Shown: positions 1-17,529 of the stretch, in pieces
Layout: every line of letters begins with the position of its first letter
Numbering within the stretch: the first letter of the stretch is position 1
Origin: Gammaproteobacteria bacterium
GTDB taxonomy: Bacteria > Pseudomonadota > Gammaproteobacteria > Tenderiales > Tenderiaceae
Reading direction: 5' to 3'
Assembly: GCA_016200485.1 (NCBI GenBank)
Contig: JACQEP010000007.1
Location: 48,653 to 112,652, forward strand
Length of the DNA: 64,000 bases
Position numbers and translations under genes: made by a program
The notes under the pieces: generated by a model
The model's database searches: none
What the model was told of the DNA's origin: nothing
What the model saw: the letters and a program-made list of their open reading frames with translations, nothing else

Positions 1-1
1 C

Positions 2-1402
2 GAAAATCATCGCATCGAATACAAGCGCGAACTGACGGACGACCTGGAAAAACAAGTCGTCGCTTTTCTCAATGCACGTGACGGTGGCGTCATTTACCTT
101 GGCATTGACGATGAAGGCAACGCGACGGGGGTAGACGAGTGCGATCAGCTCCAATTGGTAATCAAAGACCGGCTCAAAAACAACATCCAGCCCTCCATCA
201 TGGGGTTGTTTGAAATCATCCACGAACAAATGCAGGGTAAGGATGTCATTCGCCTCACCCTGGCAGGCGGATTGGAAAAGCCCTACTACCTGAAAAAATA
301 CGGCATGACCGAAAAAGGGTGCTATCTGCGCGTCGGCAGTGCCGCAGAACCCATGCCTCAGGCGATGATTGAAACACTTTTCAGCAAGCGGGTGCGTAAC
401 ACCATTGGCCGCATGGAATCACCACGTCGCGATCTTAGCTTTGAACAGCTCAACATTTACTATCAGGCCCGCGGCCTCCACCTCAATGACGCATTCATGA
501 AAAGCCTGGAGCTGCTCACGCCCGATGAAAAGCCCAACTATGCTGCCTATTTGCTGGCCGATGAAAACGGCGTCTCTTTACAGATAGCCAAATACGCAGG
601 CACTGACCGGGTCGATCTGATCGAAAACCGCGACTATGGCCGCTGCTCACTGGTCAAGGCGCTCAAAGCGGTGCTGGAACGTATCGAAGTGGAGAACACT
701 GTCTACACCAAAATCGGCTACCCCTTACGGCAGGAGCGGGCGATGATCGACGCCATCGCCATGCGCGAGGCCGTGATCAATGCCGTGGTCCACAACGATT
801 ACTCCTATGGCGCCAGCCCCAAAGTGGAGTTTTTCTCCGACCGGGTCGAGATCACCTCCATGGGCGGTCTGCCTTATGGTGTGACCGAAGAGGACTTTTT
901 CAGCGGTTGCTCCATTCCCCGCAACAAAGAGATCATGCGCGTGTTTCGTGACCTGGAGATTGTCGAGCACCTCGGCTCCGGCATACCGCGCATTCTGGAA
1001 AAATACGCACGCAACGCCTTTGAGATCCGCAGCAGCTTTGTGCGGGTGATATTCCCCTACAACAAACCCTTTGAAGAAACCGCCCCCGGAACCGAGGCCC
1101 AGGCAGGGGTAGAGTCAGGGGTAGAGTCAGGGGTAGAGTCAGGGGTAGAGTCAGGGGTAGAGTCAGAAATGGCTTTGCAGATCATGACATTGCTTATGTC
1201 TGCCGCGCTATCCAAAACCGAAATAGCCAACGCCCTTGGTAAACAAAAACCAACCCGCTATCTCAATGATTTGATGAAAAAACTACTGGAAGCGGGCCAA
1301 GTGGCCTACACCCTGCCCGGCAAACCCAACAGCCGCCTGCAAAAATACCGGCTGACCGATGCAGGCCATGCCCTGCTGAAAACATTAAAAGACGAGAAAT
1401 AA
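2..1402 (+). CDS. AlbA_2 ('divergent AAA'/Schlafen-like) + HATPase_c_4 domain DNA-binding ATPase-like protein with C-terminal winged-helix; 5' end lies outside the window (frame open from position 2).
   Basis: ORF 155..1402 has no stop upstream in the same frame back to position 2. The upstream residues (ENHRIEYKRELTDDLEKQVVAFLNARDGGVIYLGIDDEGNATG) match the AlbA_2 N-terminal domain. The HLGSGIPRI motif is typical of HATPase_c_4. The C-terminal MTLLMS..KTEIANALG segment reads as a winged HTH. The stop lies 2 nt before the hsdM ATG. Confidence 0.75.
   Translation, partial: ENHRIEYKRELTDDLEKQVVAFLNARDGGVIYLGIDDEGNATGVDECDQLQLVIKDRLKNNIQPSIMGLFEIIHEQMQGKDVIRLTLAGGLEKPYYLKKYGMTEKGCYLRVGSAAEPMPQAMIETLFSKRVRNTIGRMESPRRDLSFEQLNIYYQARGLHLNDAFMKSLELLTPDEKPNYAAYLLADENGVSLQIAKYAGTDRVDLIENRDYGRCSLVKALKAVLERIEVENTVYTKIGYPLRQERAMIDAIAMREAVINAVVHNDYSYGASPKVEFFSDRVEITSMGGLPYGVTEEDFFSGCSIPRNKEIMRVFRDLEIVEHLGSGIPRILEKYARNAFEIRSSFVRVIFPYNKPFEETAPGTEAQAGVESGVESGVESGVESGVESEMALQIMTLLMSAALSKTEIANALGKQKPTRYLNDLMKKLLEAGQVAYTLPGKPNSRLQKYRLTDAGHALLKTLKDEK
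1104..1163 (+). repeat. Perfect 12-bp tandem repeat (caggggtagagt) x5, in frame, encoding (GVES)5 in the linker of the AlbA_2/HATPase_c_4 protein.
   Basis: Direct reading of the sequence gives five identical contiguous 12-mers followed by a partial 'cag'. Confidence 0.95.
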
Positions 1403-1404
1403 CC

Positions 1405-3066
1405 ATGCTGCAAAATAACCCCGAACTAAAAGCAAAAATCGACCAGCTCTGGAATAAATTCTGGAGCGGCGGTATCTCCAATCCACTCACCGCCATCGAG
1501 CAGATTACCTACCTATTGTTCATGAAGCGGCTCGATGAAATCGACCAAAAAAAACAGGCCGATGCCGAATGGACAGGTGAGTTATATCTTTCCAAATTCG
1601 AAGGAACCTGGATGCCGCCGCAATATCGCGGGCAAAAGGATGAGAAAAAATACGCCATTGAAAAATACAAACTTCGCTGGGGTGAATTCAAAAACTATCA
1701 TGCCGAAGAGATGCTGGCTCATGTACAAACCAATGTCTTTCCTTTCCTGAAAGACCTTAACGGTGGCGAGTCAAAATTCACGCACCACATGAAAAATGCC
1801 GTCTTCATCATCCCCAAACCAGCGCTACTGGTAGAGGCAGTGAAGACCATCGACGAAATCTTCGGCATCATGGAGAAAGACTCCCAGGAAACCGGCTGCG
1901 CCTTTCAGGATATCCAGGGGGACGTCTATGAATTCCTGCTCTCTGAGATCGCCAGTGCCGGAAAAAATGGCCAATTCCGCACCCCGCGCCATATCATCAA
2001 GATGATGACTGAACTGGTGCAACCGCAACTGGGCCAGAACATCATCGACCCAGCCTGTGGTTCCGGCGGATTTTTATTGGGGGCCTATCAATACATCATC
2101 ACCCAATTAGCCATTAACGCCGGAGCTACCATCAAAATAACGCCCGACGAAGATGGCTTTAGGCGTACCTCCATCGCCGCAGGGAACACTGAAAATGCCC
2201 AAAGCATCCTGCAACGCACACTGCATGGCTATGACATCGACAGTACCATGGTACGCCTTGGTCTCATGAACCTGATGATGCACGGCATCAACGATCCGCA
2301 GATCGACTACAAAGACACCCTCAGCAAGAGCTTTAACGCCGAAGGCGAATATAACATTGTCATGGCCAACCCGCCCTTCACCGGCAGCATCGACAAGGGC
2401 GATATCAACGAACACTTGCAACTGGCCACCACCAAAACCGAACTGCTGTTTGTCGAGAACATCTACCGCCTGCTGAAAAAAGGCGGCACCGGCTGTGTCA
2501 TCGTGCTGCAAGGCGTGTTGTTCGGTTCCGGCAAGGCCTTCAAGGATCTACGCGAAACCCTGGTGACGCGCTGCGACCTCAAGGCCGTTATCACCATGCC
2601 CAGCGGCGTCTTCAAACCCTATGCCGGGGTCAGTACCGCGATTCTCCTCTTCACCAAGGTGTGGGGACCAAAAGAGAATGTCATCAAACCAGCCACCGAA
2701 CACGTCTGGTTCTACGAAATGGCCGCCGATGGTTATTCGCTGGACGACAAACGCACGAAGCTCGAAGGCCATGGCGACTTGCAGGACATCATCGCCAAAT
2801 ATCACGCACGTAATGCAGAGACAGACACCGACCGTACCCAGAAATATTTCATGGTGCCGCGCACTGACATCGAGGCCGAAGGTTATGACCTGAGCTTAAG
2901 TCGTTACAAGGAAGATGTATTTGAAGAGGTGGAGTACGAAGCCCCGGCGGTAATACTGGATAAGTTGCTCAAGGCGGAAGTGGGTAATGCCAGTGACAAG
3001 GAGCTGACCAAGGTACAGAGTGGCATTGTGCGCGAGTTGTTGGAGTTACGGGAGATGATTGGATGA
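1405..3066 (+). CDS. hsdM: Type I restriction-modification system, DNA methyltransferase subunit M (N6-adenine).
   Basis: HsdM N-terminal signature (LWNKFWSGGISNPLTAIEQITYLLFMKRLD), GQFRTPRHII, AdoMet motif I (DPACGSGGFL) and catalytic motif IV (NPPF). Stop overlaps the hsdS start (ATGA). Confidence 0.93.
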   Translation: MLQNNPELKAKIDQLWNKFWSGGISNPLTAIEQITYLLFMKRLDEIDQKKQADAEWTGELYLSKFEGTWMPPQYRGQKDEKKYAIEKYKLRWGEFKNYHAEEMLAHVQTNVFPFLKDLNGGESKFTHHMKNAVFIIPKPALLVEAVKTIDEIFGIMEKDSQETGCAFQDIQGDVYEFLLSEIASAGKNGQFRTPRHIIKMMTELVQPQLGQNIIDPACGSGGFLLGAYQYIITQLAINAGATIKITPDEDGFRRTSIAAGNTENAQSILQRTLHGYDIDSTMVRLGLMNLMMHGINDPQIDYKDTLSKSFNAEGEYNIVMANPPFTGSIDKGDINEHLQLATTKTELLFVENIYRLLKKGGTGCVIVLQGVLFGSGKAFKDLRETLVTRCDLKAVITMPSGVFKPYAGVSTAILLFTKVWGPKENVIKPATEHVWFYEMAADGYSLDDKRTKLEGHGDLQDIIAKYHARNAETDTDRTQKYFMVPRTDIEAEGYDLSLSRYKEDVFEEVEYEAPAVILDKLLKAEVGNASDKELTKVQSGIVRELLELREMIG

Positions 3067-4643
3067 GAACCGTTGCTCTCGGTGAAATTTGCAAAATTGT
3101 ATCGGGCTCAACCCCTAAAAGGAATAAACCAGAATATTGGGGAGGAGAAATCCCATGGGTTACGCCTAAAGAACTTAGCAAGATGGGATCTCCATATTTG
3201 GAAGATTCCATGGAAAAAATTACTGAACTTGGCTTCAAGTCATGTTCAACAACAATGTTGCCACCTAGGTCATTGCTGCTTAGCTCTAGAGCTCCTATTG
3301 GTTTACTGGCTATAAACAAAAAGAGTGTTTGCACGAATCAAGGTTTCAAAAGCTTGGTGCCATCAGAAGAGGCTCATGTTGAATATCTCTACTACTTCTT
3401 GAAAAACAATATTGGGGCATTACAAGCAAAGGGTAACGGCGCAACTTTTAAAGAATTATCAAGGTCTTCTGTAGAAGAGTTCAAAATCCGCCTCCCACCA
3501 CTTGACGACCAAATCCGCATTGCCCATCTGCTCGGCAAAGTGGAAGGGCTGATCGCCCAGCGCAAACAACACCTGCAACAACTCGACGACCTGCTCAAAA
3601 GCGTCTTTCTGGAGATGTTTGGCGATCCGGTGCGGAATGAGAAGGGGTGGGACATTCAACCTTGCCAAAAAGCCGTATTGGATATTTCTTCAGGCACAAG
3701 TTACGGCGGTGAAGACAGGGCGTTTGTAGGTTCTGACGAAGTTGGAGTGCTGAAGATAAGTGCAGTAACAAAAGGCACATTTGATCCAGCAGAGTTTAAG
3801 GTTGTTAATCCAGCGCAGATAACGAAGACACTTCGCTTTGTTAAGCGTGGCGATTTTCTGTTTAGTCGTGCAAATACGGTCGAGCTTGTTGCTGCATGCT
3901 GCGTTGTTCCACAGGACTACGCACGGTTATTTCTGCCCGATAAGTTATGGGTTTTGACTCTCAATGCTGAGTTAGTAAATTCGCAATTCTTCAATCGCTT
4001 GCTGAAGAATGAACGCTTTCGAGATGTCGTAAGAAGCCTGGCGAGCGGCGGCCACGATTCGATGCTGAATATTTCGATGAAGAAATTTATGACTCTCGAT
4101 ATTCCATGCCCGCCGATCAATCTCCAAAATCAATTCGCCGCAATCGTTGAAAAGATCGAAGGTATCAAATCCCACTACCAACAAAGCCTCACAGAACTAG
4201 AAAACCTCTATGGTGCATTAAGCCAAAAGGCCTTCAAAGGGGAGCTAGATTTGTCGCGTGCCCCTCTGTTAGTGAAGCTGGATGTCGCCGACAACCTAAC
4301 AATGCAACTGGAAGAGAAGGCGGGCCAGAGACATGTAACTACATCCATTGATGTGGTTGATGAGTACCCCATGTCAAACCCGGCTGCCCGCGAGAGGCTG
4401 CTTCGTAGGCTGTTTGATGAGTTTATACAAGACCTGAAAAAAGGTGCCGTCTTGTCGTTAGATTACTTCTGGCAATCAGTGCACTGGAAAGCCGTGGATT
4501 TTACGCACGAAGGGGAGCAGCCCTTTGGCTCGGCGGAGTATGAGCTGGTAAAACGCTGGTTGTTTGAATCTATTAAGTCGGGGCAGTTGGAACAGGCTTT
4601 TGATGAGGATAACAACAAAATTGCGCTGAAGTTGACAGGCTGA
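3063..4643 (+). CDS. hsdS: Type I RM specificity subunit S with two target-recognition domains plus an unusual ~128-aa C-terminal extension.
   Basis: TRD1 start (GEICKIVSGSTPKRNKPEYWGGEIPWVTPKEL). Central conserved region (LPPLDDQIRIAHLLGKVEGLIAQRKQHLQQLDDLLKSVFLEMFGDP). Second conserved region (NLQNQFAAIVEKIEGIKSHYQQSLTELENLYGALSQKAFKGEL). Coding continues ~128 aa past the usual HsdS end. TRD1 (3063-3480) is visibly AT-rich relative to the conserved spacers. Confidence 0.9.
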   Translation: MRTVALGEICKIVSGSTPKRNKPEYWGGEIPWVTPKELSKMGSPYLEDSMEKITELGFKSCSTTMLPPRSLLLSSRAPIGLLAINKKSVCTNQGFKSLVPSEEAHVEYLYYFLKNNIGALQAKGNGATFKELSRSSVEEFKIRLPPLDDQIRIAHLLGKVEGLIAQRKQHLQQLDDLLKSVFLEMFGDPVRNEKGWDIQPCQKAVLDISSGTSYGGEDRAFVGSDEVGVLKISAVTKGTFDPAEFKVVNPAQITKTLRFVKRGDFLFSRANTVELVAACCVVPQDYARLFLPDKLWVLTLNAELVNSQFFNRLLKNERFRDVVRSLASGGHDSMLNISMKKFMTLDIPCPPINLQNQFAAIVEKIEGIKSHYQQSLTELENLYGALSQKAFKGELDLSRAPLLVKLDVADNLTMQLEEKAGQRHVTTSIDVVDEYPMSNPAARERLLRRLFDEFIQDLKKGAVLSLDYFWQSVHWKAVDFTHEGEQPFGSAEYELVKRWLFESIKSGQLEQAFDEDNNKIALKLTG

Positions 4644-4648
4644 TCCTG

Positions 4649-6454
4649 GTGAAACTGTTGCGGCTAAAGATCACCGATCCTGCTGGTTTCCGCAGCCTGC
4701 AGCCGGGTTTCGAGTATCTCTTCCGTACGCCCTGGGAAATCGAAAGCGAGTTGCAGGAGGGGCAGGGCTTTGCGCCTTTTGTTTGTGCTGGACCAAATGG
4801 CAGCGGTAAGTCCAATCTGCTCGAAGTTCTGGCGGCAATATTTTTTAGCATTGAAAGCCGTTATTTGGATTTTTTACCAGATCAATTTGCCGAAAACGGT
4901 GAGGAAGTCGATGTATTTACATCGACAAATACCAAGCCCGACAGCTTCGAGCTGGAATACTTGATACCTCATGAGACTAATACCAGTCCCGTCGAATTTA
5001 AGGACGCTCATGTTGTCATATCAAAAACAGCGGGAAATAGTCCAGAATTGAATTGTTTAAATAAAAGCGAGTTCGGCATTGATGAAAAGGACTCTATTTC
5101 TCGACAACAAGCCAAAAAACTATTACCGCAGTATGTTCTTGGTTGCTCTTCGGGGGAAAACGAGATATTGAGCCTGCCTTTTTTCAAGCTGCGTTTTGTC
5201 CAGTTCGATGAATATTGGAATGCGCTAAGCAACCAATTGCCTTATCCAGGTAGACCAGAAACTAGGCTTGCCTATCTCGATAGTTCCTTTAGTCAGGCGA
5301 TTTTGCTCTGCAATCTGCTCTTTCAGGATGCAGAAACGCTAATGCCATTTCGCGAAGACGTTGGCGTGGAGGAACTGAGAGAGTTTCGTATTATTATCAA
5401 GCGCAGCATCGATGTTTCCGCTGAGATTGCTGCGAAATTTGAAAGAGGAGGTTTTGCTGAAGAGGGTTATGCGCAGGGTGGATATTATGCCAGTAATCCA
5501 GCGCTTACCTTGGACGGCGAGACCGGTCGTCACACCATTAATCTCATGCGCCTGCTTGAGGCCGGTAAAGATTCCGCAGAGAATTTTGATCCAATCGTTA
5601 CACGTCTAAAACGATGTGCGACTTGCTCCTTCGTGGATGAAACAACCGATACGCTTTATCTCGATTATTACGTCAATGAAGCAACTAAAGAGGCGTTCAA
5701 AGAAAATTTCGATTATTCGCCAATAGCATTGTTTCAGGCGTTTCAGGTCTTGCTCTCACTTAATCTCTATTCCGTTAGCGATACATTGAAAAGTAACCTG
5801 TACAAATCCGATAGCCTTTATGTTGGGGAAACCGTGCCAATCTTAGCCTCTGATGAGCGCATTATGAGATTTAAGCATTTTCTGTTAAAGAAAAGGGGCG
5901 CTGAAGAATCTGTGCTTCTTAAAAGCCTATCTGATGGCGAGCATCAGCTTTTGCACATCCTTGGCCTATGTTTGTTGTTCAGAAATACCAACAGTCTATT
6001 TCTGCTCGATGAGCCGGAAACCCACTTCAACCCGGACTGGCGTTCGAACTTTATCACGCGCCTGCGCCAGTGTTTTCGCGAGTCCACAGATACCCATGAA
6101 ATGCTTGTTACGACCCATGCCCCCTTCTTAATCTCCGACAGTAAACCAGAAAAGGTACTGGTCTTTAAGAAAGACGAGGGGCTCGGAACGGTCAACATCA
6201 GCAAACCGGATTACAACACCCTGGGCGCATCGATTAACAAGATCACTATGAATACCTTCGGCAAACGGGAAACTATTGGCGGCTATGCACAGTCGATTCT
6301 TGAGGGTCTGCGTAACCGGTTTGAAGGTGGCGAGGACAAGGATCAGCTCATTAATGAGATTAATCAGCAACTGGGCGACTCGGTTGAAAAGGTACTGCTG
6401 ATCAAGACTATCCTTGATGGCATGGAGGGTGAGGGTAATGCTGTTCCCGTATAA
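4649..6454 (+). CDS. ABC/SMC-type (AAA_21/AAA_15-like) ATPase, GTG start; candidate PtuA-like defence ATPase.
   Basis: Walker A (GPNGSGKSN), ABC signature-like (LSDGEHQLLHILG), Walker B/D-loop (LFLLDEPETHFNP) and H-loop (TTHAPF). GTG at 4649 lies 5 nt after the hsdS stop. An insertion between Walker A and the signature is typical of SMC/OLD/PtuA-like ATPases. Confidence 0.85.
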   Translation: MKLLRLKITDPAGFRSLQPGFEYLFRTPWEIESELQEGQGFAPFVCAGPNGSGKSNLLEVLAAIFFSIESRYLDFLPDQFAENGEEVDVFTSTNTKPDSFELEYLIPHETNTSPVEFKDAHVVISKTAGNSPELNCLNKSEFGIDEKDSISRQQAKKLLPQYVLGCSSGENEILSLPFFKLRFVQFDEYWNALSNQLPYPGRPETRLAYLDSSFSQAILLCNLLFQDAETLMPFREDVGVEELREFRIIIKRSIDVSAEIAAKFERGGFAEEGYAQGGYYASNPALTLDGETGRHTINLMRLLEAGKDSAENFDPIVTRLKRCATCSFVDETTDTLYLDYYVNEATKEAFKENFDYSPIALFQAFQVLLSLNLYSVSDTLKSNLYKSDSLYVGETVPILASDERIMRFKHFLLKKRGAEESVLLKSLSDGEHQLLHILGLCLLFRNTNSLFLLDEPETHFNPDWRSNFITRLRQCFRESTDTHEMLVTTHAPFLISDSKPEKVLVFKKDEGLGTVNISKPDYNTLGASINKITMNTFGKRETIGGYAQSILEGLRNRFEGGEDKDQLINEINQQLGDSVEKVLLIKTILDGMEGEGNAVPV

Positions 6455-7526
6455 ATACGTTCCGCACCAGATGGAGAAGATGCAAGAGTTTATCGACTTT
6501 ATCTTTTTTGAGGTGTGGTGCAAGGCTCTTTGGGAAGAGTACGATATTTCCCTCTTCAACAGTTGCCCAGAGCTGAAAACCATGATCGAAGGTCTGTACC
6601 ACACGGAGCCCAAGGGGGCAGATTTTTTCATAAAAGGCATTCAACAGATTTTCGATCAATTCAAAGTTCTGAATTATTTTGACTTGATGCGAATGCAAAG
6701 GTGGTACGAGGCAAATAACAATATAGAAGCAGCTTGTAGTCGAAAAGGAAAGGTTAATCCTGTTAGGTATGGCTCTTTAGGAAAAAGCTTCAATGAGCGG
6801 TACCAAGGGCTGAGTAAATCGCTTCACGCGTTCTTCAAGGACCTCTATTCACCAAACTTCTTAACGCTGAAAATTATTGAAAATGCGATTGGTAATATCG
6901 ACGACCATTATCAGCACTTCGTGCAGGTAAACACTGCGGGAAAATGCCCGTTTTGCGGAATCGGTGACGTGAAGGGCGTGCATCACACCAAGCGCGAAGC
7001 CTACGACCACTATCTCCCCAAGGCGCTCTACCCGTTTAGCTCAATCAATTTCCGCAACCTTGCTCCGGCCTGCCACGAGTGCAACAGCACCTATAAGCTC
7101 AGCAAGGACCCGGTGAATACTGCCGCAGGTCGTCGCAAGGCCTTTTACCCCTACGCTGATCCTGGTTCCAATATCGAAGTGACGATTGAACTCAGCAAGC
7201 CGGATGTTGATGATCTCACTCCTGCTGATATTCAGCTTGCCTTCGGTCCGTCGGAGTTAAATGAAGAAATTGAAACATGGAAAGATGTATACGGTATCGA
7301 GGAGCGGTATCGAGGAAAGTTGTTGGAAGGAGATGGAAAAGCGTGGCTCACAGAAATTTTGGACGAATGGAAATGGAAGGAAGTGAGCAATGGCAACGAA
7401 GGGCGCTCTCCCGCTGAATACCTTCGGGCCCTAAACCGTCACGTAACAAATTCACCATTTACAGGGGCTAATTTTCTCAAAAAGGCATTTCTTGAAGCAT
7501 GTGAAAGACAAAAATTGTTTGGCTAA
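6438..7526 (+). CDS. HNH-family endonuclease with an N-terminal ~170-aa domain of unknown function; candidate PtuB-like nuclease partner of the upstream ATPase (alternative start at 6414).
   Basis: HNH zinc/catalytic motif (CPFCG...HHTKREAYDHYLPK...FRNLAPACHECN). ATG at 6438 is preceded by GGAGGGTGAGGG and overlaps the ATPase stop at 6454. The N-terminal half is AT-rich. Confidence 0.8.
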   Translation: MLFPYKYVPHQMEKMQEFIDFIFFEVWCKALWEEYDISLFNSCPELKTMIEGLYHTEPKGADFFIKGIQQIFDQFKVLNYFDLMRMQRWYEANNNIEAACSRKGKVNPVRYGSLGKSFNERYQGLSKSLHAFFKDLYSPNFLTLKIIENAIGNIDDHYQHFVQVNTAGKCPFCGIGDVKGVHHTKREAYDHYLPKALYPFSSINFRNLAPACHECNSTYKLSKDPVNTAAGRRKAFYPYADPGSNIEVTIELSKPDVDDLTPADIQLAFGPSELNEEIETWKDVYGIEERYRGKLLEGDGKAWLTEILDEWKWKEVSNGNEGRSPAEYLRALNRHVTNSPFTGANFLKKAFLEACERQKLFG

Positions 7527-7842
7527 GAAATGATTAAATGAGCCGGGCTCGATTTGGTCATTTGCCCATTATGCAAAATCAAAGATCATTGGTGAAGAAT
7601 GGCGCTCAGACAATCAATTTTTGAGGTGATCAATTAGCCTGCTTAAGAGGCGCGTTGTGGGTAAGCGCCGTTATGAATTAGACTAAGCAAAGATTCAGAG
7701 ATTTTTCAGGGGTGGGATCAGGAAGACCCGTGCTACAAACCCTGACTCAGGTTTCGCGACCTATCGTCTCAAGGTCTATCCCATTAGGCTGGGGTCCACC
7801 CTTTTCAACTTTATAATTGTACAGCTGATGGGGGTGGGTCAG

Positions 7843-8115
7843 ATGAGCAGAGAAAATAGAATCCGTTGCAACAACATTGACTACCGGAAAGGCTTTGTCG
7901 AAGTTGAGTCTGGTGTCCACGTGGGTTGCATAACCTTAGAAACATGGAATGTTAAAATGGACCTGGATATTTCGAATCTAGACCTTTCGGATGAAGCCAT
8001 ACCAGAAGATAGCGTTACAGGAAACACAGAAATAGAAATGAGTGTTACTGAAGCCGAACAGCTAATTCAATTACTACAAAACGCAATTGATCTGGTCAGA
8101 AAAGGAAACGTATAG
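7843..8115 (+). CDS. Hypothetical small acidic protein (90 aa) in an AT-rich spacer.
   Basis: Open frame with a purine-rich stretch before the ATG. No recognisable motif. Confidence 0.25.
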   Translation: MSRENRIRCNNIDYRKGFVEVESGVHVGCITLETWNVKMDLDISNLDLSDEAIPEDSVTGNTEIEMSVTEAEQLIQLLQNAIDLVRKGNV

Positions 8116-8266
8116 CCACGTCCAGTGGATTGCTCTACGAAGTGGGTGCTTCAAATCCAGTGGTTCGGGCTTGATCTGATTGGCTCATATCATTTTATCG
8201 AATGGCCGGGTTCGGCCTAGAGCTGTAGTTCATAGTTTGTTAGCTGAACGTCTGCTTTAATGGTAA

Positions 8267-8928
8267 GTGCTTGTTATAGCATGCTTTGGATTTCCTTTGA
8301 TTGAATGGAGGATTCGGTGCGCAAACTTCATGCCTTCACTACATAGTGCCTGGAATAAAGGAAGACTAGTTGGGCAAAAGCTACCGCTGATGCAGCTATC
8401 TGAGAATATCAGGGATCTAGCGCTCTTCAATCTAGCCATCGATAGCACAAGCTTAGAGGTTGTGACTTAGTGAGGCTAATAGTCAGTGACCTCACACATG
8501 GCTCATCAATACTTAAGTGCGCAATGATCATGCAACAGAAAACCAAGCAACCTGTTCAGTTCGAGATTACAGATCAAATCAGGAAGGCCGTATTAGGCTT
8601 GATAGCCCTTCAGTATCTGAAATACAATGACACTCTCTTCCAAAGTCGTTTTCATCAATCACCTCATATCTATACCCGACAATCCGCCAGGATGGTCGGG
8701 TAATGGGTAAATGATATCGGACTAGACCCTGCGGATTACGGCGCTCACTCTATAAGAAGAACCAAGGTCTCGTTGATCTATCGGCAAACCCACAACTTGA
8801 GAGCATCCAGCTACTCCTCGGTCACACCAGATTGGAAAGTACTGTTAGGTATCTTTAGATATCTTGGTATAGAGGTAGATGATACCCTGGAAATATCAGA
8901 ACGGATGGAAATATAGCCATCCATCCCC
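8267..8928 (+). pseudogene. Tyrosine recombinase/phage-type integrase remnant (catalytic domain only), disrupted by frameshifts, an in-frame stop and a ~10-bp duplication.
   Basis: Integrase-like peptides in three frames: AWNKGRLVGQKLPLMQLSENIRDLALFNLAIDSTSLEVV | LIVSDLTHG...QPVQFEITDQIRKAVLGLIAL..FQSRFHQSPHIYTRQSARMVG stop(TAA 8701) | DIGLDPADYGAHSIRRTKVSLIYRQTHNLRA | IQLLLGHTRLESTVRYL stop | GIEVDDTLEISERMEI. The N-terminal arm/core-binding domains are absent. Confidence 0.8.
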
Positions 8929-8960
8929 CACACCTAGAAGCATTTTACACTTAAAAGTAA

Positions 8961-8988
8961 GGGAGCAGGACAGCCTGCTCCCTTTTAT
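8961..8988. terminator. Bidirectional rho-independent terminator (GGGAGCAGG-acagc-CTGCTCCC flanked by A-run/T-run).
   Basis: Perfect 9-bp stem with AAAAG upstream and TTTTAT downstream. Lies between the integrase remnant (+) and the 3' end of the minus-strand gene 8990..9334. Confidence 0.7.
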
Positions 8989-8989
8989 A

Positions 8990-9334
8990 CTATTCGCCAG
9001 TGTAATTGGCAGCGATGTAGTTGCCATCCGGAGTATAGAATAGATATAAAGTTTGCTTGGAGGCGTCACTCACTTTCTCATTCTTGAATATCACCACCCA
9101 TTCAGGGCCGTCTGCAAAGGTCTTTTGTTCTACCGAAGCGGGTTGAATTCCAGACCAGGACGCATCAATTTTTCCGGCCGTTGCCAGTTGTTCAACTTTT
9201 TGCATTGCCTTGCCAGAGGTCACATCCGCAGAAACGGGCCCATGAGAATGGCCGTGATCGTGCCCTGATCCTGCATATATTGGGTTTGCAAAAAACAAGA
9301 ACAGTGAAACTAGTGTAGAAATTAGATAACGCAT
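8990..9334 (-). CDS. Secreted His-rich putative metal-binding periplasmic protein (114 aa).
   Basis: Start MRYLISTLVSLFLFFANPIYA (signal peptide) preceded by GGAGGA. GSGHDHGHSHGP His-rich motif. The longer ORF-track start (9409) is upstream of the RBS and is rejected. Confidence 0.6.
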   Translation of the reverse strand: MRYLISTLVSLFLFFANPIYAGSGHDHGHSHGPVSADVTSGKAMQKVEQLATAGKIDASWSGIQPASVEQKTFADGPEWVVIFKNEKVSDASKQTLYLFYTPDGNYIAANYTGE

Positions 9335-9350
9335 AAATCCTCCAGGTCTA

Positions 9351-9485
9351 TTAATTGATGGTGTCATGTTGATTTGTTTGATCATGTGAGTGCCCATTAC
9401 CATGGGCATGGCCGTCTTCTGATGAGCATGCAGAAAATAGCGTTAAACTTGAACAGGTGAATATTATCAAAACTAACTTGTGCAT
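9351..9485 (-). CDS. 44-aa His-rich lipoprotein-like peptide (MHKLVLIIFTCSSLTLFSACSSEDGHAHGNGHSHDQTNQHDTIN), absent from the ORF track.
   Basis: GGAGGT RBS 6 nt upstream of the ATG. Lipobox-like LFSAC. Same GHxHGxGHSH motif as the downstream gene, and tandem with it. Confidence 0.45.
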   Translation of the reverse strand: MHKLVLIIFTCSSLTLFSACSSEDGHAHGNGHSHDQTNQHDTIN

Positions 9486-9501
9486 TATTTACCTCCTATC
9501 G

Positions 9502-10692
9502 TTAATCAATGCTTTCATGTCTTGCCTGGAGTTTTGGAGCTGGTTCGTTAATTACCTTATTTTTATCCACTAGCTGATATTCGCCATTTACTTTTAGCGA
9601 AATGGTGATAGGTGTGTGGGTGTTGTTTTTCCAATACCAACCATGTGTACCTGCAAATGTAGAGGTTAAAGAGCCGCTTGACTGGCTTTCCGTACTCTTG
9701 TGGAAGCTTTTGAAATAGCCGGTGGTATCGCCTGCGGGTTCACCATGAAAATCATAAAACAGTGGCTCGCCATCTGTTCGCCATGAATAGTTAAACGTCG
9801 CACCTTTGGCTAGAAAGAGTTTGTACTCCTTATCACCTCTGGCAGGTATCGTGACAGCGATGGAATCTTTCCACTCTGTAGACTCCATGCTTGCAAGGCC
9901 TCCTTGCACGGCAGTAGATTGCGCGGAGGCTTCTTTACTTGCGCCTAGCTCTTTATTGATGGTGTGCTCATAACCATGCATTTGCATGAAAAATAGGTAA
10001 ATTCCCATGGCTATCAAGGCATAGTTTGCAATCAGGCTGAACGCTTTGAAACCATGGGTTTTACGCCATGCCGCAATCAGCAATAACATCAGGAACAGCG
10101 CGCTGATTTGTCCCAGTTCGATGCCTATGTTGAACGAAATAATATTCAGTAACAGTCCGTCTTCGCTTAGCGGCAGTTCCTGCAAACGCGTGGATAAGCC
10201 AAAACCATGGATCAGCCCAAGCCCAATGATCATCAGCATCATGTTAGGTGGGTTAATACCAAGATATTTACGAAAGCCGTCAATGTTAGCGAAAGCGATA
10301 TAACACACACTGAGCGCAATCACTGCATCAATGAGGAAGTAGTTAAGCTGAATCGCGTTAAATGTGGCGAAAATCAGCGTGACACTGTGCCCCAGTGTAA
10401 ACGCGGTCACGTATTTGGCAATATCCCGAAAGGTGGTTAGGAAGAAGATGATCCCGAAGACAAACGCAAGATGGTCGTAGCCGGAAAGCATGTGTGTAGC
10501 GCCTAGCCACAAATACTGCACGTTACCACCGTCGATGATTGCCTGTTTTTCCGCTCCAGACATACCATGAGCAAAGGCAAGATTGGAAAACAATGCAAAC
10601 AGCACGAGCCCGGTGATTAGAATAAACAGATTTCGTTTGACTAACATGGCTTGATTATTCTGGGGTAATGAGATTGCTTTGCTGCTAATCAC
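9502..10692 (-). CDS. HupE/UreJ-family (Ni/Co) membrane transporter fused to a ~140-aa C-terminal soluble domain.
   Basis: HupE/UreJ signature HMLSGYDHLAFVFGIIFF. Multiple TM segments over ~250 aa, followed by a hydrophilic tail (KELGASKEASAQ...WKNNTHTPITISLKVNGEYQLV). Confidence 0.7.
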   Translation of the reverse strand: MISSKAISLPQNNQAMLVKRNLFILITGLVLFALFSNLAFAHGMSGAEKQAIIDGGNVQYLWLGATHMLSGYDHLAFVFGIIFFLTTFRDIAKYVTAFTLGHSVTLIFATFNAIQLNYFLIDAVIALSVCYIAFANIDGFRKYLGINPPNMMLMIIGLGLIHGFGLSTRLQELPLSEDGLLLNIISFNIGIELGQISALFLMLLLIAAWRKTHGFKAFSLIANYALIAMGIYLFFMQMHGYEHTINKELGASKEASAQSTAVQGGLASMESTEWKDSIAVTIPARGDKEYKLFLAKGATFNYSWRTDGEPLFYDFHGEPAGDTTGYFKSFHKSTESQSSGSLTSTFAGTHGWYWKNNTHTPITISLKVNGEYQLVDKNKVINEPAPKLQARHESID

Positions 10693-10997
10693 AGGCGACC
10701 TCCTTTTTCGGCAGCTGTTACCCAGTAAACGCCATGTCCCGTGAGATTGGCTTGCGCCTCACTAAGCTTTGCCAATACAGCATTTACATCAGTATCCTCA
10801 AGTAAAATATCTGTCCGTATACGTGGGGCATAGCCAACCACGTTATCGTGTGCAGTTATAAAAGGGTCGCTTTCCACTTCTACACCATGACCTTCGACGT
10901 GGCTAAAGGTAAAGCCTGAGACCTGATCAATAGTGCGTAATAAATCAGCCAGTTGTTGCTGAACGTTCGTATGAACAATAAGCGTTAATACTTTCAT
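10689..10997 (-). CDS. Small P-II-fold/DUF3240-like protein of the kind found beside cation-efflux genes.
   Basis: 102 aa. MKVLTLIVHTNVQQQLADLL...GHGV pattern. 4-nt overlap with the HupE/UreJ gene. The family assignment is from memory. Confidence 0.5.
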   Translation of the reverse strand: MKVLTLIVHTNVQQQLADLLRTIDQVSGFTFSHVEGHGVEVESDPFITAHDNVVGYAPRIRTDILLEDTDVNAVLAKLSEAQANLTGHGVYWVTAAEKGGRL

Positions 10998-11141
10998 GCG
11001 TATTCCTCTGCAATGAATCGAATCTTTAGGGTTGCCAGTGCACCAGAAATCGGCTGCATTACTGGCTTAAATTTATGTCGCATGGATACGGTCGGCTCGA
11101 GTCTAAGTCGAGCGAGCATCAATACATTGATAGAGAAACGC

Positions 11142-11558
11142 TTAAAGTGGTGGTGCGCGAAGCGGTGGGATTAGATGAAATCGACGGGGAAGGCTAACGT
11201 TGCCACGATTTATAGGAAATTTATTTCGATATAGCCCAGGTACGGGCAGGAACAGCACGATGCCTATTAAGGCTGCCATCAGTAGATTGCTAGCTACCTG
11301 TTTTAAGCAGTCCGGGCATGCATCAATCACTGTTGTTGTTTCATCATGGTGATCCTGATGGGAGCTGTCTAAAGAAAGGTGAGCCCCACCAATGTGAGAG
11401 TGTCCATTGATATTGTCGATTGAGTGATGACCTTGATGCGAGTCATGATCAAAGCTGTGGACATGTAGAGTTACGCCTTGAGCTGACAGCATTAGCAATG
11501 AAAGCAATACTGTCCACGCAATCAATATTCTCTTATCTATTTTACGAAAAAAATCCAT
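11142..11558 (-). CDS. His-rich secreted/membrane-anchored putative metal-binding protein (DUF2946-like?).
   Basis: N-terminal signal/TM. HVHSFDHDSHQGHHSIDNINGHSHIGGAH...HQDHHDE. CPDC motif. C-terminal hydrophobic segment. Confidence 0.5.
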   Translation of the reverse strand: MDFFRKIDKRILIAWTVLLSLLMLSAQGVTLHVHSFDHDSHQGHHSIDNINGHSHIGGAHLSLDSSHQDHHDETTTVIDACPDCLKQVASNLLMAALIGIVLFLPVPGLYRNKFPINRGNVSLPRRFHLIPPLRAPPL

Positions 11559-11665
11559 CGTGGCAGTCTAGCAACTTAAGTGTCCAAGTGTAAATCGGAT
11601 ATTATTTGATCCAATTCGACAATAAGGAAAAATTCTTTATTTTGACAAGCCTTATTCATGTGTAC

Positions 11666-11941
11666 TTATTTGAGATAGGAGCGTAACACTGCCACAACCT
11701 GCTCCAGATCCTCATTGCGCTGCTGAGGCGTCACACCCTCAGCGCCTAGATGCTCCCTGAGATGCCCCTCCAGCACTTCAGTCATGAGGCCATTTACCGC
11801 ACCACGAATCGCCGCAATCTGCTGAAGAATCGCCACACATTCTTTATCTTGTTCCAGGGCCTTTTCTAAGGCCTCTGTCTGCCCTTTGATGCGGCGTAAT
11901 CGGGTCAGCAGTTGTTTCTTACCTTCAATCGTATGCGACAT
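11666..11941 (-). CDS. RcnR/FrmR/CsoR-family metal-sensing transcriptional repressor (DmeR-like), 91 aa.
   Basis: N-terminus MSHTIEGKKQLLTRLRRIKGQTEALEKAL matches the RcnR/FrmR family. Divergent to a CDF transporter. The longer ORF-track start is rejected. Confidence 0.8.
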   Translation of the reverse strand: MSHTIEGKKQLLTRLRRIKGQTEALEKALEQDKECVAILQQIAAIRGAVNGLMTEVLEGHLREHLGAEGVTPQQRNEDLEQVVAVLRSYLK

Positions 11942-11962
11942 GGTTTCTCTTTCTAAGAGAGG

Positions 11963-11981
11963 TATACTGAGGTATAGTATA
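11963..11981. promoter_or_regulatory. Candidate RcnR/DmeR operator: inverted repeat TATACT-N7-AGTATA in the divergent intergenic region.
   Basis: tatactgaggtatagtata contains TACT-N7-AGTA, resembling the E. coli RcnR site consensus TACT-G6-N-AGTA. An adjacent direct repeat GAGGTATA x2 is present. Confidence 0.5.
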
Positions 11982-12011
11982 TGCCAATATGAATCAAGTA
12001 GACAAATTTCG

Positions 12012-14305: not shown

Positions 14306-14641
14306 ATGGTAAATGATGATGTTTTTCCGCAAAGACTCGTGGCTGCCCGCAAGAAGCGGGAACTCAGCCAGGATGATCTGGCCCAGAGGTCAGGGCTACA
14401 ACCCGCTGCGGTATCTCACTTTGAAACGGGAGCACGCAAGCCCTCTTTTGATAATCTGCGTCGGTTGGCAGATGCACTCAACGTAACCGCCGATTACTTA
14501 CTCGGCCGTACAGACGATCCCGAAGGGTTTGCCGAAGCGGACGTGGCTTTTCGGCACGGCTTTGAAAAGCTATCTTCAGACCAGAGGGAGATAGCTCTGG
14601 ACTTTATTCAGGTGTTGGCCAAGAGAAACAAGAAAGAATAG
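14306..14641 (+). CDS. XRE-family helix-turn-helix transcriptional regulator.
   Basis: LVAARKKRELSQDDLAQRSGLQPAAVSHFETGARKPSFDNLRRLADALNVTADYLLG is a Cro/C1-type HTH. Confidence 0.85.
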   Translation: MVNDDVFPQRLVAARKKRELSQDDLAQRSGLQPAAVSHFETGARKPSFDNLRRLADALNVTADYLLGRTDDPEGFAEADVAFRHGFEKLSSDQREIALDFIQVLAKRNKKE

Positions 14642-14653
14642 GAGCCACCTGAG

Positions 14654-15511
14654 ATGGATCCCTTTGCCACGAGAGAAGCTGAGCGGCTCCTGAAGGAGTG
14701 GGGAGTTACATCTCTTCCGGTCAATCCGGTTGCCATTGCTGTGCAGCATGACATTGTTTGTCAGGCCATGCCATCGCAGAATGGCGGGGTGTCGGGAATG
14801 TTGATAAAAAACAAGCGGGCGTTTGGTATTCTTTACGCCACCCATATAGAAAACGAGGGCTTCCAGCGTTTCAGTGTCGCGCACGAGCTGGGGCATTATT
14901 TTTTACCCGGCCATCCCGAAGCGGTGTTCGCAGGCGGCGTTATCCACGAATCACGGGCTGGATTTGTCTCTGACGATACATATGAAAGTGAGGCTGATCA
15001 TTTTGCCAGCGGCTTGCTTATGCCGAATTTTTTGTTCGATCCCGTATTAGATCGTGCCGGGGAAGGGATGGAAGTGGTTAAAACGCTGAAGCAGCTCTGT
15101 GGTACGTCTCTGGTGGCCACGGCTATCCGTTATGCTCAGAGAACGCCGGCGCCCGCCGCGATTGTAGTGAGCATAGGTGATAAGGTGGATTACTGCTTCA
15201 TGTCGGATGATCTGAAGGAATATCCGGGACTGGCCTGGCTCAAAAAAGGGATGGGCGTTCCGCGCGGCACAAAAACGCACACTTTCAACAGAGATGTGGA
15301 TAATGTGCGTCTTGCCAGAGAAGATGCAGATTCCATCAGCTTGGCGACATGGTTTGGTAGTAGAATAAAAGGTGAGCTGTATGAAGAAGTCATCGGTCTT
15401 GGCAGATATGGCAAGACATTGACTGTACTTTCCGCATCCGATCTGCCTGATCTTGAGGAGATCGAAGAGGATGAAGAACTTGAGGATTCATGGGCGATTC
15501 GCTTCAGATAA
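14654..15511 (+). CDS. ImmA/IrrE-family (DUF955) zinc metallopeptidase with an acidic C-terminal tail.
   Basis: HEXXH motif in FSVAHELGHYFLPGH. Immediately downstream of the XRE gene with a 12-nt gap. Tail DLPDLEEIEEDEELEDS. Confidence 0.8.
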   Translation: MDPFATREAERLLKEWGVTSLPVNPVAIAVQHDIVCQAMPSQNGGVSGMLIKNKRAFGILYATHIENEGFQRFSVAHELGHYFLPGHPEAVFAGGVIHESRAGFVSDDTYESEADHFASGLLMPNFLFDPVLDRAGEGMEVVKTLKQLCGTSLVATAIRYAQRTPAPAAIVVSIGDKVDYCFMSDDLKEYPGLAWLKKGMGVPRGTKTHTFNRDVDNVRLAREDADSISLATWFGSRIKGELYEEVIGLGRYGKTLTVLSASDLPDLEEIEEDEELEDSWAIRFR

Positions 15512-15640
15512 TGCCGATTTTTTGAATGTGGTAAATAAGTTAATTCCATTGATGCTGGTAATGCGGACAAGCTATTGTTTAATGCGTATGGAGACGTGGA
15601 AGCCGCACAAAATAACTTCATTCATATGATAAGGATCTCT

Positions 15641-15673
15641 AATTACAAACTTTATATCTTAATTACAAACTTT
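15641..15673. repeat. 13-bp direct repeat AATTACAAACTTT x2 spaced 20 bp apart in an AT-rich convergent intergenic region.
   Basis: Direct reading: ctctAATTACAAACTTTatatcttAATTACAAACTTTtttatc. Confidence 0.6.
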
Positions 15674-15742
15674 TTTATCAATGTACAAATGAAATATCGC
15701 TATTCTCTCTGATACAAGCGGCGACTAATTTCCTGAGCTGTA

Positions 15743-17314: not shown

Positions 17315-17529
17315 AAATACCTCGTATCGCTGAATGTAATAGTTATAATTAAATGCTAAAGCGCAATCATGTATCGGTAATGGTGCATATAACTTTACCC
17401 TGATAAGTCTATTTAAAAGGGAGGCTTTCTATATGATTTCTAAAATAATTTTGAGCGCACTTATGACTACGCTTGGTTTTAAGTGTAAATTCATATTAGA
17501 ATTTATAACGTTAATTTCGCCGGTGTTTC

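What the first reader, a model, noticed from the sequence alone, without database searches (positions are those of the whole stretch)
4260..4643. HsdS carries a ~128-aa C-terminal extension beyond the second conserved region
- Typical HsdS proteins end shortly after the second conserved coiled-coil region (here ...SQKAFKGEL at ~aa 400).
- This ORF continues for ~128 further residues (SRAPLLVKLDVADNLTMQLEEK...QLEQAFDEDNNKIALKLTG) and stops only 5 nt before the ATPase start.
- A fused extra domain on S could be an interaction surface for the downstream ATPase/HNH module, or a remnant of a fused gene.
Basis: seen in the sequence. Interest (0 to 1): 0.5.

Follow-up and report, generated by a model that had tools for sequence, protein, structure and literature searches.

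The report
HsdS tail linked to embedded nuclease
The DNA-recognition subunit of this type I restriction system ends in an extra, flexibly tethered winged-helix domain that occurs only where an ATPase and an HNH nuclease gene follow it, so it is probably the handle that couples that second defence module to the restriction enzyme.

Summary
hsdS (3063-4643, 526 aa) continues for 127 residues past the normal HsdS end and stops 5 nt before the ATPase GTG.

The tail is not a frameshift or an artefact. It consists of a disordered acidic linker of about 40 aa and a confidently folded acidic winged-helix (wH) domain of about 90 aa (pLDDT about 90). The domain has no Pfam or NCBIfam model and no solved relative.

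Among 1.84 billion representative proteins, only 238 carry the domain. In every hit listed it lies at the very C-terminus. Full-length carriers are HsdS-sized; most shorter ones are HsdS fragments.

Its link to the downstream genes was strict in every sample:
- 82 of 82 ATPase-anchored loci, across about 10 phyla, have the tail in frame on the upstream HsdS.
- 35 of 35 tail-anchored loci have the ATPase directly downstream.
- Six tail-less relatives, with HsdM/HsdR up to 96% identical, lack tail, ATPase and HNH together.
- One locus that lost most of the ATPase has a frameshifted tail.

So tail, TIGR04435 ATPase (distantly PtuA-like) and HNH nuclease are gained and lost as one block.

The best reading is that the tail is a docking adaptor that couples a Septu-like effector to the type I complex, as in the PrrC/EcoprrI or retron-PtuAB logic. 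Binding itself is inferred, not shown. I rate it a new variant of a known kind, of moderate to high interest.

The parts
1405..3066 (+). hsdM, the type I methyltransferase subunit (553 aa). Its stop overlaps the hsdS ATG by 4 nt.
   Evidence: Pfam HsdM_N and N6_Mtase, E = 1e-55. PADLOC MTase_I, E = 3e-166.
3063..4259 (+). hsdS core, aa 1-399: two target-recognition domains and two long conserved helices (aa 147-186 and 352-391).
   Evidence: Pfam Methylase_S. NCBIfam PRK09737 covers aa 3-395. The AF2 full-length model has pLDDT mostly above 90 in the core. PDB HsdS matches cover only aa 398 or earlier.
4260..4364 (+). Linker of the HsdS tail, aa 400-434. It varies in sequence and length, is rich in acidic residues and proline across homologues, and is predicted to be disordered.
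   Evidence: pLDDT is below 50 for aa 406-431. These columns are poorly conserved and gappy in the alignment of 71 tails.
4365..4640 (+). C-terminal winged-helix domain of HsdS, aa 435-526: helices 440-457, 466-480 and 490-505, then a beta hairpin at 509-524. The stop codon is at 4641-4643.
   Evidence: - AF2 mean pLDDT 89.8, pTM 0.78.
- No Pfam, NCBIfam or PHROG model.
- The profile finds only 238 representatives among 1.84e9 proteins; in every listed hit the domain is C-terminal.
- Acidic: median pI 4.6.
4649..6454 (+). ABC-type ATPase (601 aa, GTG start), named 'restriction system-associated AAA family ATPase'.
   Evidence: NCBIfam TIGR04435 scores 806 bits against a cutoff of 300. The nearest solved relatives are PtuA and AriA, matching only the C-terminal ABC part at E about 1e-5. 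PADLOC PtuA matches are partial.
6438..7526 (+). Zinc-finger HNH nuclease (362 aa from ATG 6438). It overlaps the ATPase 3' end by 17 nt. The ORF listing gives an earlier TTG at 6414.
   Evidence: The motif CPFCG...HH...DHYLPK...CHECN is present, and homologues start at MLF(P/S)Y. PADLOC PDC-M01B and PtuB match the HNH core. PGAP names the E. coli orthologue 'HNH endonuclease'.

Best explanation
The last 381 nt of hsdS encode a genuine add-on to an otherwise canonical type I specificity subunit. The add-on is a disordered linker of about 40 residues carrying an acidic winged-helix domain of about 90 residues.

This add-on belongs functionally to the two genes that follow hsdS: a TIGR04435 ABC ATPase that is distantly PtuA-like, and a zinc-finger HNH nuclease that is PtuB-like. 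Tail, ATPase and nuclease are inherited, lost and decay together, inside a type I R-M family (hsdR-x-hsdM-hsdS) that is otherwise nearly unchanged.

The most likely mechanism is that the tethered winged-helix domain is a protein-protein docking handle. Through it the HsdM2-HsdS complex, with or without HsdR, holds the ATPase-HNH effector, so that the effector's activity depends on the state of the restriction complex. Two versions are possible:
- The effector is kept latent until a phage anti-restriction protein disables or remodels the R-M complex. This is guardian logic, as for PrrC with EcoprrI, or PtuAB sequestered by the retron Eco7 RT-msDNA.
- The effector is brought to DNA that HsdS recognises.

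Shown here: the domain exists, is conserved and folds as a winged helix. It is restricted to HsdS C-termini. Its co-occurrence with the ATPase was strict in both directions in the samples examined. It is gained and lost as a block with the ATPase and HNH genes.

Inferred: direct binding of the tail to the ATPase, and the regulatory logic.
For: 1. Real domain. The tail matches homologues. AF2 gives pLDDT 89.8 with a helix-helix-helix-hairpin topology. In the full-length model a canonical core and a confident winged-helix domain are joined by a linker with pLDDT below 50.

2. Restricted distribution. There are 238 hits among 1.84e9 representative proteins. In every hit listed the domain is at the extreme C-terminus. 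Full-length carriers are 500-560 aa, and most shorter ones are HsdS fragments.

3. ATPase to tail. In 80 of 80 genome loci the tail is in the same ORF as the HsdS core and ends -4 to +54 nt from the ATPase, with a 4-nt overlap in 40 of them. HNH follows in 78 of 80; the other two are contig ends. The link also holds for a relative with only 42% ATPase identity (L134) and in E. coli.

4. Tail to ATPase. 35 of 35 metagenome loci found with a tail-only probe have the ATPase immediately downstream. So do 3 of 3 look-ups.

5. Block loss. Six tail-less relatives lack tail, ATPase and HNH together, yet their HsdM/HsdR are up to 96% identical to those of tailed loci and are interleaved with them. DNA homology between L131 (tail-less) and L031 (tailed) ends at the junction of the second conserved region and the linker.

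6. Decay. In L009 most of the ATPase and all of HNH are deleted, and the tail is frameshifted.

7. Charge. The domain is acidic, with median pI 4.6 and net charge -7. That fits a protein-binding winged helix better than a DNA-binding one.

8. Precedents. PrrC is embedded in EcoprrI and released by Stp (PMC12707154; bioRxiv 10.1101/2024.01.29.577857). In retron Eco7 the RT-msDNA holds PtuA-PtuB inactive (PMC12673091).

9. Weak co-evolution signal. The partial rank correlation of pairwise distances is 0.28 for tail versus ATPase controlling for HsdM, and about 0 for tail versus HNH.
Against: - No direct test of binding was possible.
- The co-evolution signal is weak. The tail also correlates with HsdM and HsdR (partial 0.22-0.23).
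- Winged-helix domains very often bind DNA, and a few family members have a basic pI (maximum 9.8).
- The ATPase-anchored sample is the best 80 of at least 290 matches. The tail-anchored sample covers one tail subfamily only. Exceptions among more distant members cannot be excluded.
- Co-inheritance alone would also follow if the tail were simply a third subunit of the module that happens to be fused to hsdS.
- The data do not distinguish the guardian version from the recruitment version.
Confidence: 0.6

Rival explanations
1. The winged-helix domain is a third subunit of the ATPase-HNH module, for example a sensor or regulator, that became fused to the upstream gene. It acts within the module, and HsdS serves only as a carrier. 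The fusion ensures co-expression but does not couple the module to R-M function.
For: The strict co-inheritance with ATPase and HNH would arise equally under this reading. The long disordered linker would let the domain act independently of the HsdS core. In E. coli the M-S(tail)-ATPase-HNH unit persists without a nearby hsdR.
Against: Apart from two frameshifted or interrupted copies, the domain is in frame with HsdS in all 117 anchored loci. Among the 238 representative clusters, most short hits are N-terminally truncated HsdS fragments, and no clear free-standing family was seen. This suggests that attachment to HsdS itself is selected. Tail-less loci of the same R-M family that carry a different embedded ATPase (AAA_13) show that the slot can be used without any fusion.
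Confidence: 0.2
2. The tail is a DNA-binding winged helix. It would either autoregulate the operon, like the C proteins of R-M systems, or give HsdS an extra DNA contact. Its link to the ATPase would then be indirect.
For: The fold matches are mostly DNA-binding winged-helix proteins: DpnI wH, E2F/DP, PadR, GntR, Fur and histone H5.
Against: The domain is strongly acidic in most members, with median pI 4.6 and net charge -7. The conserved residues of helix 3 (DYExIKxWVFEAL) are hydrophobic or acidic rather than basic. A generic regulatory or DNA-contact role does not explain why tail-less sister R-M systems with 90-96% identical HsdM/HsdR do without it. It also does not explain why the tail decays once the ATPase is deleted.
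Confidence: 0.1
3. The extension is an artefact: a frameshift, a read-through of a lost stop codon, or an assembly error that joins hsdS to a small downstream ORF.
For: None was found. A few metagenome copies are split by a stop or a frameshift (L098, L123, L009), which shows that such lesions occur.
Against: The in-frame fusion is conserved in 80 of 80 and 33 of 35 independent loci from many phyla. The linker junction follows the motif DLSRVPLP, which is shared with tail-less proteins. The full-length AF2 model is coherent.
Confidence: 0.01

Closest known systems
PrrC anticodon nuclease embedded in the EcoprrI type IC R-M locus (an 'R-M guardian')
   Same: An ABC-ATPase-based effector is encoded inside a type I hsd operon. 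It is thought to be physically associated with the R-M proteins, which keep it latent, and is unleashed when phage Stp inhibits the R-M enzyme (PMC12707154; bioRxiv 10.1101/2024.01.29.577857). Tail-less sister loci of the present R-M family carry an AAA_13 ATPase in exactly this slot. I recall AAA_13 as the Pfam family of the PrrC/RloC ATPase domain; this was not checked here.
   Different: Here the effector is a two-gene ATPase plus HNH nuclease, not a single-chain ATPase-anticodon nuclease. It lies after hsdS rather than between hsdS and hsdR. The R-M side carries a dedicated extra domain on HsdS. No such appendage on an S subunit was found in the papers searched for EcoprrI or any other system. 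Latency and trigger are untested here.
Septu (PtuA/PtuB), and PtuAB as the effector of retron Eco7 (Ec78)
   Same: Both pair an ABC ATPase with an HNH nuclease from adjacent, overlapping genes. The ATPase's nearest solved relatives are PtuA proteins. The HNH protein matches PtuB and PDC-M01B profiles. In retron Eco7 a separate sensor module (RT-msDNA) binds PtuAB and holds it inactive until a phage nuclease cuts the msDNA (PMC12673091). That is the same plug-in logic proposed here, with HsdS-wH as the holder.
   Different: Similarity to PtuA is confined to the C-terminal ABC motifs (E about 1e-5). The NCBIfam PtuA equivalog scores 37 bits against a cutoff of 500. The ATPase belongs to its own family, TIGR04435, with a large and different insert. 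The HNH protein is about 360 aa with unrelated flanks. This is not a member of Septu by these models.
Canonical HsdS specificity subunits (EcoKI, EcoR124I, M. jannaschii S; type IB EcoAI/EcoEI-like operons)
   Same: Residues 1-399 are a standard HsdS with two TRDs and two conserved helices. Related loci have an HsdR carrying the EcoEI_R_C domain.
   Different: The six solved S-subunit chains matched are 398-476 aa, and the best-scoring matched stretch ends by query residue 398, so none aligns to the tail. Only one PADLOC/REBASE-derived profile (PDLC03117, 518 positions) spans the tail, and it carries no separate annotation for it.
Embedded defence candidates of PADLOC (HEC and PDC systems) and PARIS (AriA/AriB)
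   Same: These are ABC ATPase plus nuclease pairs nested within other immune systems. Several are triggered by anti-restriction proteins such as Ocr or Stp (bioRxiv 10.1101/2024.01.29.577857).
   Different: Those systems are described as self-contained cassettes. Here the host system's own subunit has acquired a domain that travels with the cassette. That points to integration of the two systems rather than mere co-location.

Membership tests
Type I R-M specificity subunit (HsdS) | Two Methylase_S target-recognition domains separated and followed by long conserved helices, encoded next to hsdM | tested here: met
   Pfam PF01420, E = 1e-32. PADLOC Specificity_I, E = 2e-115. The AF2 model shows TRD-helix-TRD-helix. 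hsdM is directly upstream with a 4-nt overlap.
Type I R-M specificity subunit (HsdS) | Protein ends shortly after the second conserved helix | tested here: not met
   127 further residues follow. This is the variant feature.
Type IB (EcoAI/EcoEI-like) family | HsdR with the EcoEI_R_C C-terminal domain; family assignment by complementation or cross-hybridisation | tested here: inconclusive
   HsdR in related loci carries PF08463 EcoEI_R_C. There is no hsdR in this window, which starts just upstream of hsdM. Complementation cannot be tested with these tools.
TIGR04435 restriction system-associated AAA family ATPase (downstream gene) | Score above the curated cutoff over the full length | tested here: met
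   806 bits against a cutoff of 300; residues 1-592 match profile positions 1-567 of 568.
Septu / PtuA-PtuB | ATPase reaching the PtuA equivalog model, and a PtuB-type HNH partner | tested here: not met
   NCBIfam PtuA scores 37 bits against a cutoff of 500, covering only aa 448-578. PADLOC PtuA hits are partial. The HNH protein matches PtuB only over the 60-80-aa HNH core. It works like Septu but is not a member.
PrrC-type R-M guardian | Effector gene embedded in a type I hsd operon | tested here: met
   The gene order is hsdR-(x)-hsdM-hsdS-ATPase-HNH. hsdR was found upstream in 63 of 80 anchored loci; the other 17 reach a contig or record end within or at most about 1.1 kb upstream of hsdM.
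PrrC-type R-M guardian | Effector is an anticodon nuclease held latent by the R-M complex and activated by an anti-restriction factor | not testable with these tools
   The effector here is an HNH nuclease. Latency and trigger need experiments.
Winged-helix fold | Three-helix bundle followed by a beta-hairpin wing | tested here: met

The most novel reading that the evidence does not exclude
The HsdS winged-helix tail physically joins a type I restriction enzyme and a Septu-like ATPase-HNH effector into one integrated machine. The state of the M2S (or R2M2S) complex would then license the second nuclease, whether that state is attack by Ocr/Stp/ArdA-type inhibitors or engagement with unmodified target DNA. 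The wider implication would be a general principle: embedded defence cassettes bring their own adaptor domain and graft it onto a subunit of the host system. That grafting would be recognisable from sequence alone, as a domain on a host subunit that co-segregates with the cassette.
Probability: 0.35. Interest if true: 0.8.

Novelty: new variant of a known kind. Interest (0 to 1): 0.6.

Why it matters
Many defence systems are found nested inside others. Apart from PrrC/EcoprrI, there is little evidence on whether nested systems talk to their hosts or are merely neighbours.

Here the host system's own DNA-recognition subunit carries a domain that appears and disappears together with the nested ATPase-HNH cassette. 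That is a sequence-level signature of functional integration, and it gives a precise handle for experiments: delete about 127 residues.

The arrangement is widespread, spanning about 10 phyla. It occurs in 96 of 5426 complete E. coli genomes, where it is annotated only as 'restriction endonuclease subunit S', so a tractable model exists.

It also defines a domain family with no Pfam or NCBIfam model and no description in the papers searched. It suggests a general search strategy: look for host-subunit appendages that co-segregate with embedded cassettes.

Tried and rejected
- A word-indexed homology search with the tail alone found nothing. The tail is too divergent for 5-residue words. The full-length search and the exhaustive profile search worked.
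A narrower subfamily alignment, A4, was used instead, so the tail-to-ATPase test covers one tail subfamily.
- The afdb50 fold library was unavailable.
- Pfam's only tail hit, GldN at E = 0.019 and below cutoff, was rejected as noise.
- The mirror-tree analysis gave only a weak preference for the ATPase and is reported as inconclusive.
- I considered that HNH might replace a defective HsdR nuclease. This was rejected because HsdR is equally conserved (83-85% identity) in tailed and tail-less loci.
- Plasmid and phage collections: the tail has essentially no plasmid hits, only one weak match. Only 2 full-length ATPase relatives were found in IMG/VR. The system is mainly chromosomal or carried on ICEs.
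- Literature searches for TIGR04435, 'restriction system-associated AAA', Septu with HsdS, and HsdS with winged helix found no description of this tail.
Full report
**Observation.** The ORF at 3063..4643 (+) encodes a 526-aa HsdS. Pfam Methylase_S and the NCBIfam HsdS model cover only residues 3-395. The second conserved helix ends in ...SQKAFKGELDLSR. Residues 400-526 (nt 4260-4640) lie beyond it. The stop codon is at 4641-4643, five bases follow, and the downstream ATPase starts at GTG 4649. That start is confirmed by invariant MKLLRLK N-termini in homologues. The six solved S-subunit chains matched are 398-476 aa, and the best-scoring matched stretch ends by query residue 398.

**What the tail is.** The tail alone has no Pfam, NCBIfam or PHROG family. 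It does match about 70 of the 120 closest HsdS homologues, with a best E-value of 8e-43.

The length of sequence beyond KGEL falls mainly into two classes in those 120 proteins. In 44 it is 50 aa or less, and in 70 it is 120-160 aa. Alignment shows a variable, acidic and proline-rich linker followed by a conserved block of about 92 residues, with consensus ...R..LL..WL...L......FS...F..A.....L......G..DYE.IK.WVFEAL..G.L.Q.FDD..N.I.LK.

AlphaFold2 folds this block with a mean pLDDT of 89.8 into three helices plus a beta hairpin. In the full-length model a canonical HsdS core (aa 1-391) is joined to the domain (aa 440-524, pLDDT about 85-94) by a segment with pLDDT below 50 (aa 406-431).

**Distribution.** A profile of the domain was searched exhaustively against 1.84 billion representative proteins. 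It finds only 238 proteins at E of 1e-3 or better. In every hit listed the match is at the extreme C-terminus. Full-length carriers are 500-560 aa, which is HsdS-sized, and most shorter ones are N-terminally truncated HsdS fragments. One PADLOC/REBASE-derived Specificity_I profile (PDLC03117, 518 positions) spans the tail. Proteins of this kind are therefore in databases, but the tail is not annotated as a separate entity.

**Genomic linkage.** The downstream ATPase is a full-length member of TIGR04435, 'restriction system-associated AAA family ATPase', at 806 bits against a cutoff of 300. The next gene is a Cys4 zinc-finger HNH nuclease.

- *ATPase-anchored scan of one genome per species.* This gave 80 loci with 58-75% ATPase identity, from Pseudomonadota, Desulfobacterota, Nitrospirota, Chlorobiota, Cyanobacteriota, Planctomycetota, Verrucomicrobiota, Lentisphaerota, Chloroflexota and Fermentibacterota.
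  - In 80 of 80, the ORF ending next to the ATPase contains both an HsdS core and the tail domain.
  - The gap between the HsdS stop and the ATPase is -4 to +54 nt, and 40 of 80 have a 4-nt overlap.
  - HNH follows in 78 of 80; the other two are contig ends.
  - hsdR was found upstream in 63 of 80. The other 17 loci reach a contig or record end within or at most about 1.1 kb upstream of hsdM.
- *More distant relatives.* A relative with only 42% ATPase identity (L134), and L133, show the same arrangement.
- *Tail-anchored scan of metagenomes.* A probe made from one tail subfamily gave 35 loci. All 35 have the ATPase immediately downstream, and HNH wherever the contig continues.
- *Individual look-ups.* Three tailed homologues gave the same result.

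**Block gain and loss.** Six tail-less relatives of the same HsdS subfamily (L007, L011, L128-L131) have no trace of tail, ATPase or HNH. Their HsdM and HsdR are 84-96% identical to those of tailed loci and interleave with them. The mean identity is 0.83-0.85 for tail-less versus tailed loci, against 0.82-0.83 among tailed loci.

DNA homology between tail-less L131 and tailed L031 runs through hsdR, hsdM and both conserved regions of hsdS. It stops at the junction of the second conserved region and the linker.

L009 is an intermediate. Homology to L031 continues through the tail and the first roughly 95 nt of the ATPase and then breaks. The remaining ATPase fragment is 43 residues, and the tail is now out of frame with HsdS.

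Two tail-less loci instead carry an 801- or 872-aa AAA_13 ATPase overlapping the hsdS stop. I recall AAA_13 as the Pfam family of the PrrC/RloC ATPase domain; this was not checked here. The site after hsdS is thus a slot for alternative embedded effectors, and the winged-helix tail is specific to the TIGR04435/HNH cassette.

**Mechanism.** The evidence shows that linker, winged-helix domain, ATPase and HNH form one evolutionary unit, grafted onto an otherwise standard type I system. The system is type IB-like, since related HsdR proteins carry EcoEI_R_C.

The ATPase's nearest solved relatives are PtuA (Septu and retron Eco7) and AriA, but only over the C-terminal ABC motifs. The HNH core matches PtuB and PDC-M01B profiles. 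The NCBIfam PtuA model is far below its cutoff. The pair therefore works like Septu but is not a Septu member.

Two precedents make a tethering role the most economical reading:
- PrrC is encoded within EcoprrI, kept inactive by it, and released when T4 Stp inhibits the R-M enzyme (PMC12707154; bioRxiv 10.1101/2024.01.29.577857).
- Retron Eco7's RT-msDNA binds two PtuA-PtuB complexes and restrains them until a phage nuclease cleaves the msDNA (PMC12673091).

An acidic winged helix on a flexible leash of about 40 residues, attached to the subunit that nucleates the M2S complex, is well suited to hold the ATPase-HNH complex.

Three things were not tested and remain inference: whether this serves to guard the R-M enzyme against anti-restriction proteins, whether it delivers a second nuclease to recognised DNA, and whether binding occurs at all. 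A mirror-tree analysis gives only weak support, with a partial rho of 0.28 for tail versus ATPase and about 0 for tail versus HNH.

**Rivals.**
- *Incidental fusion of a module subunit.* Confidence about 0.2. It explains the co-inheritance, but it fits less well with the finding that the domain was not seen as a clear free-standing gene family.
- *DNA-binding or regulatory winged helix.* Confidence about 0.1. It is disfavoured by the acidic charge, by near-identical R-M systems that lack the tail, and by decay of the tail after loss of the ATPase.
- *Frameshift or assembly artefact.* Excluded by in-frame conservation in more than 110 independent loci.

**Known or new.**
- NCBI already names the ATPase family 'restriction system-associated', and PGAP annotates the E. 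coli genes as 'restriction endonuclease subunit S', 'restriction system-associated AAA family ATPase' and 'HNH endonuclease'.
- The searchable literature yielded no paper on TIGR04435, on this operon type or on an HsdS C-terminal domain. The library is incomplete, so this is not proof of absence.
- The concept of embedded ABC-ATPase defences is established (bioRxiv 10.1101/2024.01.29.577857).
- What appears new is a dedicated domain on the host system's specificity subunit that co-segregates with the embedded cassette. I classify it as a new variant of a known kind.

**E. coli.** 96 of 5426 complete genomes carry hsdM-hsdS(521 aa; tail E = 4e-33)-ATPase-HNH. In the two genomes inspected the unit lies at the yeeJ-proximal edge of a conjugative element, with no hsdR within 5-6 kb. 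The uniform match statistics suggest one shared element, so this counts as a single evolutionary case. It does show that the four-gene unit can persist without an adjacent hsdR, and it offers an experimental model.

**Limits.**
- The window does not include hsdR. It begins at the AlbA_2/HATPase_c_4 gene that occupies the variable slot between hsdR and hsdM.
- The anchored samples are the best-scoring subsets of larger hit lists.
- Metagenomic loci may include close duplicates.
- No complex prediction or contact output was available.

Noticed in passing
window 2..1402 (+): The gene upstream of hsdM encodes an SLFN/AlbA_2 + HATPase_c_4 + Fic-like_C protein and starts at about the window edge. 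It contains a perfect (GVES)x5 peptide repeat. In related loci the same hsdR-hsdM slot holds KilA-N, Fic/RhuM, Bro-N or PDDEXK_3 genes. This is a second variable slot in this R-M family.
   Followed up: partly
L011:6836-9241 and L128:6037-8655: Tail-less sister loci carry an 801- or 872-aa AAA_13 ATPase overlapping the hsdS stop, in place of the TIGR04435 ATPase and HNH. I recall AAA_13 as the PrrC/RloC-type Pfam family; this was not checked. A different embedded effector occupies the same slot, and there is no HsdS appendage.
   Followed up: partly
L009:11299-11750 (also L010): A decaying copy of the module. The winged-helix tail is intact in sequence (E = 1e-35) but frameshifted away from HsdS. 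Only a 43-residue N-terminal remnant of the ATPase is left, and HNH is gone.
   Followed up: yes
L127 / L132 (E. coli strains 3045 and JS316): 96 of 5426 complete E. coli genomes carry hsdM-hsdS(tail)-ATPase-HNH. In the two genomes inspected it lies next to yeeJ at the edge of a conjugative element with VirB/T4SS, MobC and ArdC genes, and no hsdR lies within 5-6 kb. Two HsdS alleles of identical length (521 aa) were seen.
   Followed up: partly
window 6414..6454: The HNH gene most likely starts at ATG 6438 (MLFPYKYVPHQ..., matching homologue N-termini). The TTG at 6414 listed mechanically is less likely. From 6438 the gene overlaps the ATPase 3' end by 17 nt.
   Followed up: yes
L005:6619-10004 and 14519-17806: In Desulforhopalus sp. 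52FAK, hsdM is split by an IS (DDE_Tnp_1) insertion. A 1095-aa SNF2-family helicase gene directly follows the HNH gene.
   Followed up: no
window 7527..9000: No tRNA gene lies in window 1-12000. The short ORFs after the HNH gene (7828-8115, 8267-8703) have no Pfam hit. GC content is about 0.44-0.49 across hsdS-ATPase-HNH, against 0.52 for the whole window. TRD1 is lowest, at 0.41. This is consistent with a horizontally acquired island whose right-hand border was not identified.
   Followed up: partly
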